From the sequence record PZ386972.1: a DNA stretch of 64,000 nt. The stretch is one strand, 5' to 3'. Each line of letters starts with the position of its first letter. The first letter of the stretch is position 1. A program made the position numbers and the translations under genes. The notes under the pieces were generated by a model. The model did no database searches and was not told the DNA's origin. It saw only the letters and a program-made list of their open reading frames with translations. Positions 7,803 to 43,331 of the stretch are shown one piece after another. The DNA comes from a phage.

Positions 7803-8774
7803 TTAATCGTATACTCGTTCTACTATGCACGGGATTACACCACCAGCACGAATCACTCGAATCTGGCAACCGATCTCTAGATCGAGAGAGTTAATATAAT
7901 CAACGTTATTAAGAGTCGCTTTAACAATTGTAGCATCATCAATAATTACCGGTTCGAAATAACCAACTGGAGTTACTTTACCAGAAGCCCCTACCTGCCA
8001 TTCAACTTTAGTAAGAGTTGTAACCTCGCCTTCTTCATCCTCTTTAATAGCGAATGCTCCACGAGGGAATTTATTAGTCCAGCCTTCACGGAAGAATTTG
8101 TTGTTGTCATTAATACGAACAACTTTACCATCCGTCGGAATCCATTTAAAGAAGGAACGCACATTAACAACTGTTAAGAAGTTCTCATTCTCCAGCCAAA
8201 GCATATCTTTTAAATATGCTTCTGTAATACCTACAGATTCAGCAGAACACTGGATACCATATGCAACGAAGATTAAACCACCTTCTCCGATACGTTGTAC
8301 AAAATCATCACTATCTTTGAGGTTAATAGCACCAGAGGCAAAGTTACGTTTATTTTCTACTTCTTTTGTAATTAGAACTTCACCAGTGATTTGAGTAGGT
8401 ATTTTTTGGGAAATCTTTTTAGGGATATTCAGCAATCTTACGTTGCTTGTGACATCATTTCCCAGAATACCATTGCCACGAGTTAGTGCTTGAACAAATT
8501 CTCCATTAATATATAACAGAGAAATCGCACAACCATCTAACTTATCAGTTTCTACCTGACCTAATGGGTTGAATGGGGGTTTATCTCCACGATTATAATA
8601 AACTTTCTGTAAAGAATACATACGATATAGATGTGGAATATCACCCTTAGGTCCGATCTCTTCTTCTAACGGGAAGCGTTTTACCAGGCAATCATACTCC
8701 TCATCTGAGATTAAAGACATACCTTGATAATATGCTTCTTGGCAACGTTTAATAAAGTCTTTTACATTGGTCAT
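7803..8774 (-). CDS. ligA: NAD-dependent DNA ligase, N-terminal adenylation subunit
   Basis: 323 aa; adenylation KxDG motif (ETDKLDGCAI); OB-fold region; separated from the C-terminal ORF by 199 bp. Confidence 0.8.
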   Translation of the reverse strand: MTNVKDFIKRCQEAYYQGMSLISDEEYDCLVKRFPLEEEIGPKGDIPHLYRMYSLQKVYYNRGDKPPFNPLGQVETDKLDGCAISLLYINGEFVQALTRGNGILGNDVTSNVRLLNIPKKISQKIPTQITGEVLITKEVENKRNFASGAINLKDSDDFVQRIGEGGLIFVAYGIQCSAESVGITEAYLKDMLWLENENFLTVVNVRSFFKWIPTDGKVVRINDNNKFFREGWTNKFPRGAFAIKEDEEGEVTTLTKVEWQVGASGKVTPVGYFEPVIIDDATIVKATLNNVDYINSLDLEIGCQIRVIRAGGVIPCIVERVYD

Positions 8775-33357: not shown

Positions 33358-33429
33358 GCCGTCCTAGTATAATTGGTATTATCAAGCCGTAACTGGTGGA
33401 AGATGTAGGTTCGAATCCTACGGTCGGTA
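33358..33429 (+). ncRNA. tRNA-like element with canonical T-arm but no anticodon arm found by hand
   Basis: T-arm GTAGGTTCGAATCCTAC at 33405-33421; 5' segment GCCGTCC pairs to 3' GGTCGGT with one mismatch. Confidence 0.3.
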
Positions 33430-35719: not shown

Positions 35720-35797
35720 GGTTCTCAAGCTCATATGGTATGAGCACCCGGCTCATAACCGGAAGGTACGTAGGTTCGAATCCTCGGGGAGCCACCA
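35720..35797 (+). tRNA. tRNA with CAU anticodon (Met, fMet or Ile2)
   Basis: Acceptor GGTTCTC/GGGAGCC; D-arm GCTC/GAGC; anticodon loop CTCATAA; weak T-stem; CCA. Confidence 0.5.
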
Positions 35798-37255: not shown

Positions 37256-37343
37256 GGGCGTTTATTCCGTAGATGGTAGCGGAGGGGATTGTAAATCCCT
37301 GGTCATTGCGACTCGAGTGGTTCGACTCCATTAACGCCCACCA
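37256..37343 (+). tRNA. tRNA-Tyr (anticodon GUA), long variable arm
   Basis: Acceptor GGGCGTT/AACGCCC; anticodon stem GGGGA/TCCCT with loop TTGTAAA; variable stem-loop; CCA. Confidence 0.65.
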
Positions 37344-38718: not shown

Positions 38719-38794
38719 CGACCGTTGGCTGAATGGCTTAGGCGAAGGATTGCAAATCCTTTTTATGTGAGTTCAAATCTCATGCGGTCGTCCA
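38719..38794 (+). tRNA. tRNA-Cys (anticodon GCA)
   Basis: Acceptor CGACCGT/GCGGTCG; anticodon stem AAGGA/TCCTT with loop TTGCAAA; T-arm GTGAGTTCAAATCTCAT; CCA. Confidence 0.6.
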
Positions 38795-38796
38795 AT

Positions 38797-38936
38797 TTGC
38801 TGAAAGAATTGTTAAATCAATTCAGGCACGCGTAGGAACACTGTCTCCGTAATTGAAAGATGAGACACGGTTTGGAGAGGTATGCCGCTACACGCTACGG
38901 TGCTAACTCCGTCTAGGTGAAAATCCTAGTCAGCAA
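38797..38936 (+). ncRNA. structured RNA (~140 nt) with terminal pairing and T-arm-like hairpin, not a canonical tRNA
   Basis: 5' TTGCTGA pairs with 3' TCAGCAA; hairpins GTCTC...GAGAC and CTAGGTGAAAATCCTAG. Confidence 0.3.
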
Positions 38937-38946
38937 TATAAATTTA

Positions 38947-39029
38947 GGGTCGTTAGCCAAGCGGTTTGGCGGTGGACTGTTAATCCATGTCGAAAGACAA
39001 CGTAGGTTCGAATCCTACACGGCCCGCCA
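38947..39029 (+). tRNA. tRNA with GUU anticodon (Asn-like) and an atypical 13-nt variable stem-loop
   Basis: Acceptor GGGTCGT/ACGGCCC; anticodon stem GTGGA/TCCAT with loop CTGTTAA; variable GTCGAAAGACAAC; CCA. Confidence 0.45.
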
Positions 39030-39580: not shown

Positions 39581-39656
39581 ACATCCATAGCTCAATGGTT
39601 AGAGCTACCGCCTCTTAAGCGGAGGGTTCTAGGTTCAAGTCCTAGTGGGTGTACCA
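39581..39656 (+). tRNA. tRNA-Lys (anticodon CUU)
   Basis: Acceptor ACATCCA/TGGGTGT; D-arm GCTC/GAGC; anticodon loop CTCTTAA; T-arm CTAGGTTCAAGTCCTAG; CCA. Confidence 0.55.
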
Positions 39657-40038: not shown

Positions 40039-40277
40039 CAGTGCAGAACACGGAGCTAGCAATTCGGAAGTGCTGACTCATGATAGGCTGCCTATGTACT
40101 TGCGAAGCGGTCGTGTCCAAGACTCGGACTCTTGCACTGAAAACAATCAAACATTCTAGCGTGGTTGATGGGGAAACCAGCTTGGCTAGGGCAGAAGCTC
40201 GTTCGATTCGAGTGAAAGAATGGTTCTCGTAAGTCCGCACAAGTGATAACAGGTTCGAGTCCTGTCTAGAATGACAC
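40039..40277 (+). ncRNA. composite structured RNA region with closing stems and two T-arm-like hairpins, unresolved
   Basis: CAGTGCAG (40039-46) pairs CTGCACTG (40132-39); ATTCTAG (40153-59) pairs CTAGAAT (40267-73); T-arm-like hairpins at 40197-40213 and 40250-40266. Confidence 0.3.
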
Positions 40278-40422
40278 TATAAAGTTTACTTATTATGTAG
40301 GTTCCGATAGATCGGCGGGTCTATTCTGGCATTTAAGAGAGGTCTCGCAAACTTCTTTGTCAGCCGTGGGGTTGATAGCCTCCAGGTGGCCTACACAATA
40401 AGTAAATTTATTAAAAATTCAT

Positions 40423-40451
40423 TTGCTATTCTGCTTAATTATCTGTATAAT
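40423..40451 (+). promoter_or_regulatory. early promoter
   Basis: TTGCTA 40423-40428, TATAAT 40446-40451. Confidence 0.6.
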
Positions 40452-40481
40452 ATATTTTATAAAGTGAGTTAACAAAATTAA

Positions 40482-40557
40482 CAGTGCGTAGCGCAGTTGG
40501 TAGCGTGGGAGCCTTGGATGCTTCGGGTCGCAGGTTCGAGTCCTGCCGCACTGACCA
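40482..40557 (+). tRNA. tRNA-Pro (anticodon UGG)
   Basis: Acceptor CAGTGCG/CGCACTG; anticodon stem GGAGC/GCTTC with loop CTTGGAT; T-arm GCAGGTTCGAGTCCTGC; CCA. Confidence 0.65.
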
Positions 40558-40563
40558 AACAAT

Positions 40564-40641
40564 TGCGGGTTAGATCTCTGGTAGAGATCGCTAGTCTCAT
40601 AAGCTAGAAAGAGGTAGGTTCGATTCCTGCACCCGCTTCCA
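40564..40641 (+). tRNA. tRNA with CAU anticodon and a 1:72 mismatch (initiator- or Ile2-like)
   Basis: D-arm GATC/GATC; anticodon stem CTAGT/GCTAG with loop CTCATAA; T-arm with TTCGATT loop; CCA. Confidence 0.55.
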
Positions 40642-40661
40642 TTTTAATAGAGGATTTCGAA

Positions 40662-40829
40662 ATGAAAGTATTTCGATTAGTAGTAAGTGACAAACGTTTA
40701 GGTAAGAATACCTCAAAATCCTTACTTGCTCATTATGGAAAAGATGAGAAAGAAGTAATGGCGGAGTTTGGGATTAATCACCCTTACTTGAAAGTTCACT
40801 CTATTAAAGAAGTATATAATGGTTACTAA
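40662..40829 (+). CDS. hypothetical small protein (55 aa), below the ORF-track cutoff
   Basis: ATG after GAGGA; between two tRNAs. Confidence 0.3.
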   Translation: MKVFRLVVSDKRLGKNTSKSLLAHYGKDEKEVMAEFGINHPYLKVHSIKEVYNGY

Positions 40830-40830
40830 T

Positions 40831-40909
40831 AGATCGCTAGCTCAATAGGTTTAGTAGCATCCGACTTTTAATCGGAAGGTTCTGGGTTCGAGTCCCAGGC
40901 GATCTACCA
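40831..40909 (+). tRNA. tRNA-Lys (anticodon UUU)
   Basis: Acceptor AGATCGC/GCGATCT; anticodon stem TCCGA/TCGGA with loop CTTTTAA; T-arm CTGGGTTCGAGTCCCAG; CCA. Confidence 0.55.
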
Positions 40910-40927
40910 ATTTCAAGAAAAACGCAG

Positions 40928-40956
40928 TTGCTTGATGCTTAATTTCTTGTTATAAT
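40928..40956 (+). promoter_or_regulatory. early promoter followed by a 9-bp-stem leader hairpin
   Basis: TTGCTT 40928-40933, TATAAT 40951-40956; hairpin TGATGAGGA-TTT-TCCTCATCA at 40969-40989. Confidence 0.55.
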
Positions 40957-41194
40957 ATTTATATAAATTGATGAGGATTTCTCCTCATCATAGTTCACTA
41001 AGGTATTAGCTCGACCTAGGACTGGCTGCCAAAAAGCACGATCCCTACGATTCGGGAGAAGTTCTAGATTAGTCCACTAGATTCAGCGGCAACTGAATAG
41101 TGTATCGGGTTTGCGAGATGACGCGGTTCCTTCCGCTCGAAGCGAAGGTGCTGTAGTTACGCCGAGCTAATAGCCTTAGTAAACTAAAGAATTT

Positions 41195-41273
41195 GGGGAA
41201 TGGGTCTGCATGGAGTGGACACCTCGCTTGCACCGAGGACATCAGAACGGTTCGATTCCGTTATTCTCCACCA
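41195..41273 (+). tRNA. tRNA-Ala (anticodon UGC)
   Basis: Acceptor GGGGAAT/ATTCTCC; anticodon stem CCTCG/CGAGG with loop CTTGCAC; T-arm AACGGTTCGATTCCGTT; CCA. Confidence 0.6.
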
Positions 41274-41278
41274 AATAC

Positions 41279-41355
41279 GCGTGATTGATGGAATTGGCAT
41301 ACATACCGTCCTTAGAAGTCGGGTTTTGAGGGTTCGAATCCCTTGTCACGCACCA
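41279..41355 (+). tRNA. tRNA, anticodon uncertain (hand fold gives UAG)
   Basis: Acceptor GCGTGAT/GTCACGC; D-arm ATG/CAT; T-arm GAGGGTTCGAATCCCTT; CCA; anticodon stem has a U-U mismatch. Confidence 0.4.
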
Positions 41356-41440
41356 AATTTGATGGTCAGAGTAAATTAAACCTACTATCTCGGTTGAGCT
41401 GTTTTAATGGGTTCGAATCCCAGCGAGGCGTAACTGCCTG
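41356..41440 (+). ncRNA. orphan T-arm-like hairpin plus adjacent hairpin; possible tRNA remnant or small RNA
   Basis: TGGGTTCGAATCCCA at 41408-41422 and AGGCGTAACTGCCT at 41427-41440; no acceptor partner found. Confidence 0.25.
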
Positions 41441-41467
41441 GCGTGATAGAGGCATCATCTTATTATT

Positions 41468-41558
41468 GGAAGAGCAAATCGAATTGGCGACGAAAACCGC
41501 TTGGAAAGTGGCTGACTGGTAAAACGGCTTGAGAGTTCAAATCTCTCCTCTTCCGCCA
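41468..41558 (+). tRNA. tRNA-Ser (anticodon GGA), long variable arm
   Basis: Acceptor GGAAGAG/CTCTTCC; anticodon loop TTGGAAA; T-arm GAGAGTTCAAATCTCTC; CCA; 91 nt. Confidence 0.55.
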
Positions 41559-41570
41559 AACAATTTATAT

Positions 41571-41665
41571 GGTAGGTCAATCCAATGGCTGGCGCTGGAC
41601 TCCGACTTGAAATCGGTTGATCGTAGTGATACGGTGTAAGGGTTCGATCCCCTTACCTACCTCCA
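41571..41665 (+). tRNA. tRNA-Ser (anticodon UGA), long variable arm
   Basis: Acceptor GGTAGGT/ACCTACC; anticodon loop CTTGAAA; variable stem CGTA/TACG; T-arm AAGGGTTCGATCCCCTT; CCA; 95 nt. Confidence 0.55.
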
Positions 41666-41670
41666 AGTCT

Positions 41671-41802
41671 TGAAGTATGCCGGAATCGGTAGACGGGGCT
41701 GCCTAAAAGGTTTATAGGGAACATCCACTCCCTACAACATACCTCATAAAGCGGCTGAGATAAATGGTCTATCTCGTGAAGGTTCAAGTCCTTCTGCTTC
41801 TT
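41671..41802 (+). ncRNA. structured region with terminal T-arm (GAAGGTTCAAGTCCTTC) and internal hairpins, unresolved
   Basis: Hairpins TAGGGA...TCCCTA (41714-41734) and GAGATA...TATCTC (41757-41775); T-arm 41778-41794; no CCA. Confidence 0.25.
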
Positions 41803-42031
41803 GATACATCTATGGCTCAAAGTGTAACGGTGCTATTTGATGCTCTTAGTAAGACTTTCCCGACATGCGTTCGGGAGTAAGCTGCTAAGGCTAGAATAGA
41901 AGAGTTTCTGAGAGCCGCCACAATTGAAAATTCGTACTCGTCTTGAGCTGCGTGCAATAGGAGATAACTTGATTAGTATTCTAGAACATGCTAATTGAGG
42001 ATGGTTTCGCTAACCCTGCGAGTTTTCAATT

Positions 42032-43244: not shown

Positions 43245-43331
43245 GCTGGGTTGGCAGAATGGTTGAATGCACCTGATTTGTAATCAGGAGGAGTAATCCC
43301 GTTGCAGGTTCGAATCCTGTGCCCAGCACCA
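43245..43331 (+). tRNA. tRNA with UGU anticodon (Thr-like) and an atypical 15-nt variable region
   Basis: Acceptor GCTGGGT/GCCCAGC; anticodon stem CCTGA/TCAGG with loop TTTGTAA; T-arm GCAGGTTCGAATCCTGT; CCA. Confidence 0.5.

What the first reader, a model, noticed from the sequence alone, without database searches (positions are those of the whole stretch)
38797..38936. 140-nt structured element between tRNA-Cys and the GUU tRNA
The termini pair (TTGCTGA with TCAGCAA) and the interior holds hairpins GTCTC...GAGAC and ACGG...CCGT, the latter with an 8-nt loop, plus a T-arm-like CTAGGTGAAAATCCTAG. There is no room for a variable loop, so this is not a canonical tRNA. It may be a degenerate tRNA or a small RNA.
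Basis: seen in the sequence. Interest (0 to 1): 0.45.

Follow-up and report, generated by a model that had tools for sequence, protein, structure and literature searches.

The report
tRNA-shaped small RNA gene in phage
The 140-base stretch is a real, conserved and so far unannotated small RNA gene of T5-like phages: a tRNA-shaped frame whose anticodon loop is replaced by a 70-base folded insert, of unknown function like the old T4 and T5 'stable RNAs'.

Summary
The window is a T5-like phage (Demerecviridae). Its tRNA cluster lies at 33.3-44.3 kb, all on the + strand.

**What the element is.** Bases 38797-38936 fill the gap between tRNA-Cys and tRNA-Asn and form a conserved structured RNA. Across 15 distinct sequences from three clades, 99.3% of cells pair and 15 of 37 base pairs show compensatory changes. 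Invariant G-U pairs point to the + strand.

**The fold.** It is a cloverleaf:
- a 7-bp acceptor-like stem;
- a D-position hairpin;
- a 5-bp anticodon-stem equivalent;
- an 8-nt variable-loop linker;
- a 5-bp T arm with the unusual loop UGAAAAU.

In place of the 7-nt anticodon loop there is a 70-nt three-way junction with an almost invariant core. When I swapped that insert for 7 nt, ARAGORN called the frame a tRNA.

The terminal stem, the GTCTC/GAGAC hairpin and the T arm hold. The ACGG/CCGT hairpin and the 'no variable loop' claim do not.

**Distribution.** The element occurs in about 210 Demerecviridae records and 7 Klebsiella Mydovirus records, always abutting tRNAs. It has no Rfam match and was not annotated in any record I inspected. 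T5 itself carries a T5orf172 ORF in this slot.

**Reading.** It is most likely a new member of the T4 RNAC/RNAD and T5 RNA1/rna2 class. Processing like a tRNA is inferred. Its function is unknown.

The parts
38719..38794 (+). Upstream tRNA-Cys(GCA) with an encoded CCA end. The element starts 2 nt after it.
   Evidence: ARAGORN and Rfam; sequence.
38797..38803 (+). P1 5' strand, TTGCTGA: the acceptor-stem equivalent, 7 bp with 38930-38936.
   Evidence: 100% paired; 4 of 7 pairs have compensatory changes.
38806..38823 (+). P1a hairpin GAATTG-TTAAAT-CAATTC in the D-arm position. It is preceded by an invariant AA (38804-38805) and followed by an invariant A (38824).
   Evidence: 5 of 6 pairs covary. 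ARAGORN reads it as the D arm in the loop-swap test.
38825..38835 (+). P2 5' strand: GGCAC (anticodon-stem equivalent), a bulged G (38830), then CGTAG (distal extension).
   Evidence: RNAalifold. 10 pairs are 100% paired; 2 covary, CG to GC and AU to UG. Real tRNAs align here with a 7-nt loop in place of the 70-nt insert.
38836..38894 (+). Distal payload, a three-way junction. In order:
- J2/3, GAACACT;
- P3 hairpin, 38843-38866, with a 14-nt loop;
- a single A;
- P4 hairpin CGGT-TTGGAGAGGTAT-GCCG, 38868-38887;
- J4/2, CTACACG, 38888-38894.
   Evidence: P3 covaries (3 of 5 pairs). P4, J4/2 and distal P2 are invariant in all three clades.
38895..38904 (+). P2 3' strand, CTACG-GTGCT.
38905..38912 (+). 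8-nt linker AACTCCGT in the variable-loop position. Its CTCC (38907-38910) may pair with GGAG of the P4 loop (38874-38877) as a pseudoknot.
   Evidence: Position. For the pseudoknot: one compensatory pair (A-U to G-C) and one pair lost in Mydovirus. This is weak.
38913..38929 (+). P5, the T-arm equivalent: CTAGG-TGAAAAT-CCTAG. The 7-nt loop is invariant and non-canonical.
   Evidence: 1 pair covaries; loop invariant 7 of 7.
38930..38937 (+). P1 3' strand, TCAGCAA, plus a discriminator-position T. No CCA is encoded. A 9-nt trailer (38938-38946) runs to tRNA-Asn.
38947..39029 (+). Downstream tRNA-Asn(GTT), 83 nt, with a 10-nt insertion in the variable region.

Best explanation
The element is a gene for a roughly 140-nt non-coding RNA built on a tRNA frame.

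Shown:
- It folds as a cloverleaf: a 7-bp acceptor-like stem, a D-position hairpin, a 5-bp anticodon-stem equivalent, an 8-nt variable-loop linker and a 5-bp T arm stacked on the acceptor stem.
- The 7-nt anticodon loop is replaced by a 70-nt payload. The payload extends the anticodon stem by 5 bp and ends in a three-way junction with two hairpins.
- The junction strands, P4 and the distal P2 helix are invariant across three clades.
- The outer helices drift and are kept by compensatory change.

Inferred:
- It is transcribed with the flanking tRNAs from an early promoter of the tRNA region.
- The acceptor/T-arm minihelix lets host RNase P cut its 5' end. RNase P cleavage of the next tRNA, followed by 3' exonucleases, trims its 3' end. 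CCA may then be added.
- The tRNA-like fold makes it stable.
- The tRNA frame therefore serves as an expression and stability scaffold, and the conserved payload is the working part.
- The unit moves between unrelated phage families on its own, without a partner gene, and has no antisense target in the phage above chance. I therefore think the payload most likely acts in trans by binding a host factor.
- My preferred guess is a decoy or inhibitor of a tRNA-directed host enzyme or defence nuclease: it would be bound through the tRNA body but offers no anticodon loop to cut.

The element belongs with the small stable RNAs of T4 (RNAC/RNAD) and T5 (RNA1, rna2 and others) that sit in tRNA clusters and whose functions are unknown.

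Confidence, by part: about 0.85 that it is a functional structured RNA gene on a tRNA frame; about 0.6 for tRNA-like processing; about 0.25 for the decoy role.
For: Structure:
- 99.3% of 547 cells are paired, and 15 of 37 pairs have changes on both sides.
- 0 of 500 shuffles reach the observed values.
- When the 3' partners are slid by 1-3 columns, only 25-43% of cells pair and at most 2 pairs covary.

Strand:
- G-U pairs are invariant at 38825:38904 and 38871:38884, and variable G-U pairs occur in P3 and P2.
- All 22 tRNAs are on the + strand.
- No + strand terminator-like site was found between 37800 and 39800.

tRNA frame:
- With filters off, the covariance model's next-best hits in the cluster are real tRNAs, aligned end to end. 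In the two such alignments that keep the anticodon stem (tRNA-Ile, tRNA-Lys), the tRNA's 7-nt loop stands where the element has 70-72 nt.
- With the payload swapped for 7 nt, ARAGORN calls the frame a 78-nt tRNA at its default threshold. This held for the window and for KKP_3711, and for 0 of 200 shuffled frames.

Selection:
- Distal P2, P4, J4/2 and the T loop are invariant. P1, P1a and P3 are nearly saturated with change but stay paired.

Discrete unit:
- Similarity between the Mydovirus and T5-like loci is confined to the element and to single tRNAs. The element is 74% identical, within the 70-92% range of those tRNAs.
- In every locus but one the element starts 2-3 nt after an upstream tRNA's CCA. 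The neighbours differ: Cys and Asn, Asn and Cys, or Ser and Ser.

Class:
- The window also holds homologues of all six small RNAs annotated in the T5 tRNA region.
- T5 RNA1, T5 rna2 and T4 rnaC are predicted to fold as cloverleaf-like RNAs with a long central arm.

Context:
- The T5 tRNA region is dispensable in the laboratory and holds a proven counter-defence tRNA (PMC11464382).
Against: - No transcript, processing or stability data exist for this element. Everything after 'it folds like this' is inference.
- It encodes no CCA, unlike its neighbours. Its T loop (UGAAAAU) and D-position loop lack the bases that form the canonical tRNA elbow, so recognition by RNase P and other tRNA enzymes is not assured.
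- ARAGORN did not accept the loop-swapped frames of the Sugarlandvirus-type and Mydovirus versions, even at relaxed thresholds.
- Only three clades exist, so each covarying pair rests on one or two events. The invariant core gives no covariation evidence for P4 or distal P2.
- In T5-like sequences the single-sequence minimum-energy fold is a different one, about 3 kcal/mol better.
- The decoy idea has no direct support.
- The element is absent from more than half of T5-like phages and is truncated in one, so it is dispensable.
Confidence: 0.6

Rival explanations
1. A decaying tRNA pseudogene: a former tRNA gene that took a 70-bp insertion in its anticodon loop and is now drifting.
For: The frame is clearly tRNA-derived. 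tRNA detectors reject the intact element. It is absent from many T5-like phages and truncated in one.
Against: The insert is the most conserved part, with distal P2, P4 and J4/2 invariant in three clades. Every helix is kept by compensatory change. It is conserved across two unrelated phage families at the level of working tRNA genes. A drifting pseudogene would lose pairing.
Confidence: 0.05
2. A tRNA gene interrupted by a small intron. The insert would be spliced out to give a working tRNA.
For: The insert sits exactly where tRNA introns sit, in the anticodon loop.
Against: ARAGORN in intron mode finds nothing, even at a relaxed threshold. The first and last bases of the insert (GCGUAG... 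and ...CUACG) cannot supply a loop with U33 and a purine at 37; this is a direct reading of the sequence. Seventy nt is far below the size of self-splicing group I introns, and bacteria lack the archaeal/eukaryal splicing endonuclease (general knowledge). No Rfam intron or ribozyme family matches at E up to 10. The T and D loops are non-canonical.
Confidence: 0.03
3. A ligand-binding or switching RNA: a riboswitch-like aptamer carried on a tRNA frame, for example a sponge for a small signalling molecule, or an RNA that toggles between two folds.
For: A compact three-way junction with invariant junction strands is typical of aptamers. T5-like versions have two nearly isoenergetic folds: the covariation-supported one at -38.7 kcal/mol and the minimum-energy one at -41.9. 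A direct repeat GCTAC-AC-GCTAC offers an alternative register.
Against: No known riboswitch family matches. The alternative fold is not kept in Mydovirus. There is no expression platform. Nothing points to a ligand.
Confidence: 0.1
4. A micro-ORF. A Shine-Dalgarno-like GGAGAGG followed by ATG (38882) opens a 12-codon frame that ends at the TGA in the T loop (38918-38920) and is kept in frame in Mydovirus.
For: The frame and stop are conserved, and there are no insertions or deletions in this stretch.
Against: Of the four codons that differ between clades, three change the amino acid (V to G, P to L, R to W). Four of the five changed bases are accounted for by RNA pairing partners changing in step, and the fifth breaks the weakest pair of the candidate pseudoknot. 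The SD-to-ATG spacing is 1-4 nt. The ATG is partly inside P4. The whole frame lies inside a tRNA-like fold.
Confidence: 0.02
5. A DNA-level or cis-acting element, such as a homing-endonuclease target, a recombination site, an RNase processing signal or a terminator, rather than a trans-acting RNA.
For: The Cys-Asn slot is a swap site: T5 carries a MUG113/T5orf172 ORF there. The tRNA regions of T4 and T5 are rich in homing endonucleases.
Against: Compensatory changes and strand-specific G-U pairs point to selection on a folded + strand RNA. There is no T-run. The unit keeps its own boundaries while its neighbours change.
Confidence: 0.05

Closest known systems
Small stable RNAs of phage tRNA clusters: T5 RNA1 (144 nt), rna2 (125 nt), RNA2H, RNAI, RNAIII and RNAIV (misc_RNA features in AY692264), and T4 RNAC/RNAD (species 1 and 2 RNAs)
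   Same: It lies inside the tRNA cluster on the tRNA strand, flush against tRNAs, and is 100-170 nt long. Its terminal stem is stacked on a T-arm-like hairpin. T5 RNA1, T5 rna2 and T4 rnaC are predicted to be cloverleaf-like with a long central arm. Function is unknown (PMC3014915, PMC9697503). The window carries all six T5 RNAs as well.
   Different: - There is no sequence similarity to any of them.
- T5 and T4 themselves lack it.
- Its T loop is UGAAAAU, whereas T5 RNA1 has UUCAACU and T5 rna2 and T4 rnaC have UUCGAAU.
- The central arm ends in a branched three-way junction.
- It is shared with an unrelated phage family, Mydovirus.
- No transcript has been shown for it.
Canonical tRNA (Rfam RF00005)
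   Same: Cloverleaf with 7-bp acceptor, 5-bp anticodon-stem equivalent, variable-loop linker and 5-bp T stem with a 7-nt loop. ARAGORN accepts the frame once a 7-nt loop is put in.
   Different: There is no anticodon loop: 70 nt stand in its place. It has no UUC in the T loop, no GG in the D loop, a 6-bp D-position stem and no encoded CCA. Rfam and ARAGORN reject it.
Engineered 'tRNA scaffold' RNAs, in which a structured RNA is inserted in place of the anticodon loop of a tRNA to be expressed stably in E. coli (my own knowledge of the Ponchon and Dardel method; not checked in the library)
   Same: The same design: the payload replaces the anticodon loop, and the tRNA body would give processing and stability.
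   Different: This one is natural and evolved. That the scaffold works this way here is inferred, not shown.
Bacterial Y RNA YrlA and tmRNA: RNAs that join a tRNA-like module to a second functional module
   Same: Two-module logic: a tRNA mimic plus a working domain (PMC4201824 for YrlA).
   Different: There is no Rfam match to either, and ARAGORN's tmRNA mode is negative. There is no G3-U70 pair, no canonical T loop and no pseudoknot ring. In YrlA the RNA ends lie in the Ro-binding stem, not the acceptor stem (my own knowledge).

Membership tests
tRNA (RF00005) | Four-arm cloverleaf with 7-bp acceptor and 5-bp T stem stacked on it | tested here: met
   Covariation-supported fold. Real tRNAs align globally to the model. 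ARAGORN accepts the frame after the loop swap, but not for the two other clades.
tRNA (RF00005) | 7-nt anticodon loop with U33 and an anticodon | tested here: not met
   70 nt stand in its place. No intron-type solution was found.
tRNA (RF00005) | Conserved T loop (UUCRANY) and D-loop GG that form the elbow | tested here: not met
   The T loop is an invariant UGAAAAU. The D-position loop is UUAAAU or variants, without GG.
tRNA (RF00005) | Score at or above the family threshold in Rfam, or a call by ARAGORN | tested here: not met
   No tRNA hit on the element even at E up to 10. ARAGORN finds none.
Phage tRNA-cluster small stable RNAs (T4 RNAC/RNAD, T5 RNA1/rna2 and others) | Encoded within the tRNA gene cluster, on the same strand, abutting tRNAs, about 100-170 nt | tested here: met
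Phage tRNA-cluster small stable RNAs (T4 RNAC/RNAD, T5 RNA1/rna2 and others) | Terminal stem plus T-arm-like hairpin (a tRNA-like end suited to RNase P) | tested here: met
Phage tRNA-cluster small stable RNAs (T4 RNAC/RNAD, T5 RNA1/rna2 and others) | Accumulates as a discrete, stable, processed RNA in infected cells | not testable with these tools
   No expression data are held. No paper on this element was found.
Phage tRNA-cluster small stable RNAs (T4 RNAC/RNAD, T5 RNA1/rna2 and others) | Sequence homology to a described member | tested here: not met
   BLAST of the six T5 RNAs and the two T4 RNAs hits only their own homologues in the window, not the element. The covariance model does not hit them: the best score is 6 bits on rna2.
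tmRNA | tRNA-Ala-like end (G3-U70, canonical T loop, CCA) plus a tag reading frame and pseudoknots | tested here: not met
   ARAGORN's tmRNA mode is negative, and Rfam finds none. Pair 3:70 is G-C or A-U.
YrlA / Y RNA, known riboswitches, self-cleaving ribozymes, group I introns (Rfam 15) | Match to the family covariance model | tested here: not met
   No hit at E up to 10 on the window element or on the Mydovirus copy. The one exception is a chance 23-nt hit on the - strand.

The most novel reading that the evidence does not exclude
A natural 'tRNA scaffold': phages express a 70-nt aptamer-like three-way junction in place of the anticodon loop of a tRNA frame. The host's tRNA machinery would mature and protect it. 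The RNA would then act as an anti-defence decoy or sponge, neutralising a tRNA-directed host nuclease or enzyme or sequestering another host factor or signal. Unrelated phage families that share Enterobacteriaceae hosts (T5-like Demerecviridae and Klebsiella Mydovirus) exchange it as a stand-alone unit. If true, this would also give a first testable function for the 50-year-old class of T4/T5 tRNA-cluster stable RNAs.
Probability: 0.2. Interest if true: 0.8.

Novelty: new member of a known kind. Interest (0 to 1): 0.55.

Why it matters
Phage tRNA clusters have recently turned out to be counter-defence loci; T5 tRNA-Lys against PARIS is one example. The small non-tRNA RNAs that sit in those clusters in T4 and T5 have had no known function since the 1970s.

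This element adds a well-defined member to that class. It has clear covariation and a clean two-part design, a tRNA frame plus a conserved payload. It is present in some T5-like phages and absent from others, and it has been transferred between unrelated phage families. Those features make it a good handle for experiments: it is small, dispensable, easy to delete or to express in trans, and naturally present or absent among otherwise similar phages. One carrier is E. coli phage HildyBeyeler.

It also shows that genome annotation of about 220 deposited phage genomes misses a real gene.

Tried and rejected
- **Rfam 15.** I searched at gathering thresholds and at E up to 10, on the window element and on the Mydovirus copy. 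Nothing matched except the flanking tRNAs and one chance 23-nt hit.
- **ARAGORN.** I tried the tRNA, intron and tmRNA modes, with relaxed thresholds. None called the intact element.
- **More distant relatives.** I ran four pattern scans of IMG/VR, one of metagenomes and one of GTDB genomes, then screened all fetched loci with nhmmer and the covariance model. Only T5-like and Mydovirus copies turned up. The other pattern hits are chance matches, many in coding sequence.
- **BLAST against E. coli genomes and plasmids.** No match.
- **Homology to T5 and T4 small RNAs.** None.
- **Antisense targets in the window.** Counts of complementary 10-12-mers are close to those for shuffled sequence: 19 against 17 for 10-mers, 7 against 3.4 for 11-mers.
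- **Short tRNA-like elements with the same T arm in other phages.** Their number is about what chance gives. I kept them only as a side note.
- **The 12-codon ORF.** Rejected on its substitution pattern.
Rejected on covariation.
- **Literature searches.** I found nothing on this element. The 1980s T5 papers are not in the library.

Full report
**Setting.** The window is a T5-like phage. A 2-kb stretch around the finding is 99.2% identical to Salmonella phage SCF and matches 488 phage records, nearly all Demerecviridae. ARAGORN finds 22 tRNAs and Rfam 22 (two of them different), all on the + strand between 33.3 and 44.3 kb. The finding fills the gap between tRNA-Cys (38719-38794) and an 83-nt tRNA-Asn (38947-39029). 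It starts 2 nt after the CCA of tRNA-Cys and ends 9-10 nt before tRNA-Asn.

**Checking the observation.** Folding energy alone is weak evidence: z = -2.44 on the + strand and -3.40 on the - strand. No Rfam family matches the element, even at E up to 10.

**Homologues.**
- BLAST finds the element in about 220 phage records. That is fewer than half of the T5-like records that match the surrounding region.
- It also occurs at about 74% identity in seven records of Klebsiella Mydovirus, an unrelated myovirus group in the Vequintavirinae. There it sits between tRNA-Ser(GCU) and tRNA-Ser(UGA).
- In Sugarlandvirus-type T5-like phages it follows tRNA-Asn and precedes tRNA-Cys.
- In every locus but one (BIS47) it begins 2-3 nt after an upstream tRNA's CCA.
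- Between Mydovirus and the window, similarity is limited to this unit and to individual tRNAs. The element (74%) falls within the 70-92% range of those tRNAs.
- Pattern scans of IMG/VR, metagenomes and GTDB genomes, screened with nhmmer and a covariance model, gave only more T5-like and Mydovirus copies.
- There is no match in E. coli genomes or plasmids.
- None of the records I inspected annotates the element.

**Structure.**
- RNAalifold on 10 distinct sequences gave a four-way junction. I built a covariance model from it and re-aligned 17 copies, 15 of them distinct.
- On that alignment 99.3% of cells pair, and 15 of 37 pairs have changes on both sides. No shuffle out of 500 reaches these values. 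Sliding the 3' partners by 1-3 columns drops pairing to 25-43%, with at most 2 covarying pairs.
- The alignment was fitted to the model, which favours it. However, the same compensatory changes are visible in the plain MAFFT alignments.
- The helices are:
  - P1, 7 bp, 38797-38803 with 38930-38936;
  - P1a, a hairpin at 38806-38823;
  - P2, 10 bp with a bulged G, 38825-38835 with 38895-38904;
  - P3, a hairpin at 38843-38866;
  - P4, a hairpin at 38868-38887;
  - P5, a 5-bp stem with a 7-nt loop, 38913-38929.
- In Mydovirus, P3 is UCCCCA/UGGGGA with a 7-nt loop, in a register that MAFFT and the model align imperfectly.
- Invariant G-U pairs (38825:38904 and 38871:38884), plus variable ones, would be A-C mismatches on the other strand. 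The RNA is therefore read from the + strand.
- In T5-like sequences that alternative fold is about 3 kcal/mol better than the conserved one. The Mydovirus sequence folds into the conserved one on its own.
- A pseudoknot between GGAG in the P4 loop and CUCC in the linker has one compensatory pair and one lost pair. It remains a suggestion.

**It is a tRNA frame with a payload.**
- I ran the model over the tRNA cluster with filters off. Its next-best hits were genuine tRNAs (His, Ile, Lys and others). They align end to end: P1 as acceptor, P1a as D arm, the first 5 bp of P2 as anticodon stem, the linker as variable loop and P5 as T arm. In the two alignments shown that keep the anticodon stem (tRNA-Ile, tRNA-Lys), the tRNA's 7-nt anticodon loop stands where the element has 70-72 nt.
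- As a direct test I replaced the 70 nt (38830-38899) by a 7-nt loop in silico. ARAGORN then called a 78-nt tRNA at its default threshold. This held for the window and for the KKP_3711 version, and for 0 of 200 shuffled frames.
- The Sugarlandvirus-type and Mydovirus frames were not accepted. The intact element is rejected even in intron mode.
- The frame departs from real tRNAs in its invariant T loop UGAAAAU, a D-position loop without GG, a 6-bp D-position stem and no encoded CCA. The neighbouring tRNAs do encode CCA.

**Pattern of constraint.** Distal P2, P4, the junction strand CUACACG, the T loop and the single-base joints are invariant in all three clades. P1, P1a and P3 have changed at most positions but stay paired. 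This is the signature of a working RNA whose payload is recognised by sequence or tertiary fold. It is not the signature of a decaying pseudogene.

**The 12-codon frame.** A frame from ATG at 38882 to TGA at 38918-38920, preceded by GGAGAGG, is kept in frame in Mydovirus. Three of the four changed codons alter the amino acid. Four of the five base changes are matched by compensating changes in RNA partners, and the fifth breaks the weakest pair of the candidate pseudoknot. I reject coding.

**Context and class.**
- The T5 st0 record AY692264 annotates six misc_RNAs in the tRNA region: RNAIII, RNAI, RNA1, RNA2H, RNAIV and rna2. The window has homologues of all six at 40152-42030.
- T4 has rnaC and rnaD next to its tRNAs. 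Their roles are still unknown (PMC3014915; PMC9697503).
- T5 RNA1, T5 rna2 and T4 rnaC are predicted to fold as cloverleaf-like RNAs with a long central arm and a canonical T arm (single-sequence predictions only).
- The present element has no sequence similarity to any of them.
- It is absent from T5, which carries a 172-aa MUG113/T5orf172 ORF in the Cys-Asn slot along with a different tRNA-Asn. It is therefore an additional, undescribed member of this class.
- One T5-like contig has a copy whose 5' half has been replaced by other sequence. This fits a dispensable accessory gene.

**Mechanism.**
- Shown: the fold, the strand, the tRNA frame, the conserved payload and the modular distribution.
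- Inferred from what is known of tRNA-cluster transcripts and of T4 species 1 RNA (my own knowledge): co-transcription with the tRNAs, 5' cleavage by RNase P, 3' trimming and possibly CCA addition, and stability due to the tRNA-like body. No + strand terminator-like site lies between 37800 and 39800.
- The payload has no complementary target in the window above chance. The unit also travels without a partner gene. I therefore favour binding of a host factor over antisense action or a phage-encoded partner.
- The T5 tRNA region is dispensable and contains a proven counter-defence tRNA (PMC11464382). A tRNA body without a cleavable anticodon loop would make a plausible decoy for tRNA-directed nucleases. 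This last step is a guess, which I put at roughly 20-30%.

**Verdict.** It is a new member of a known but functionally unexplained kind. I rate its interest as moderate.

Noticed in passing
window 38947-39029; L001:1944-2028: tRNA-Asn(GTT) is 83 nt because of a 10-nt insertion in the variable region (ucgaaagaca, a GUC-GAAA-GAC mini-hairpin). That is unusual for a class I tRNA. The Mydovirus phage VLCpiM5a also has a long (85-nt) tRNA-Asn. T5's own tRNA-Asn is 78 nt and a different sequence. tRNA-Thr at 43245-43331 is also long (87 nt).
   Followed up: partly
window 40152-40276, 40295-40397, 41004-41175, 41669-41813, 41814-41920, 41925-42030: Homologues of the six small RNAs annotated in T5 st0 (rna2, RNAIV, RNA2H, RNA1, RNAI, RNAIII), at 85-100% identity. 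Together with the present element, the cluster holds at least seven non-tRNA RNA genes.
   Followed up: partly
window 33358-33429 and 35720-35794: Rfam calls two tRNAs here (35.5 and 40.3 bits) that ARAGORN does not report. ARAGORN in turn reports tRNAs at 37256-37343 and 41195-41273 that are missing from the Rfam gathering list.
   Followed up: no
L022 (T5, AY587007) 7928-8446, - strand: In T5 the Cys-Asn slot holds a 172-aa ORF with MUG113/T5orf172 domains. The slot is an exchange point between an ORF module and the RNA module.
   Followed up: yes
L013:921-1058 (IMGVR_UViG_2706796127_000001, a T5-like contig): A truncated copy. From the P3 loop upstream, the element is replaced by a promoter-like sequence and two ORFs. 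The 3' half and tRNA-Asn are intact.
   Followed up: partly
L048:4181-4251 (-) and L047:2304-2369 (+): Short (about 65-70 nt) tRNA-like elements in other phage tRNA clusters share the T arm GUCnnGGUGAAAAUCCnnG and have a 7-bp terminal stem. The L048 copy lies 6 nt after the CCA end of tRNA-Gly, ends in UCCA and folds as a mini-cloverleaf (z = -3.6). The number of such cases is about what chance gives, so any link to this family is unproven.
   Followed up: partly
window 38886-38898: A direct repeat GCTAC-AC-GCTAC gives CGTAG (38831-38835) two possible pairing registers. T5-like copies have two nearly isoenergetic folds, but the alternative is not conserved in Mydovirus.
   Followed up: partly
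window 38913-38929 versus 39581-39656: The T stem of the element (CTAGG/CCTAG, flanked by T on each side) is identical to that of the nearby tRNA-Lys(CTT). This may hint at the frame's origin, or it may be chance.
   Followed up: no
phage records: A few records that carry the element are labelled Listeria (2) or Campylobacter (1) phages. Klebsiella phage KPP2018 (138 kb) has two places. These are probably mislabelled or chimeric T5-like records.
   Followed up: no
L002:1538-1759 (BIS47): A 222-nt CDS annotated 'DNA ligase' lies on the opposite strand and overlaps the element and tRNA-Ser. It is almost certainly a spurious gene call.
   Followed up: no
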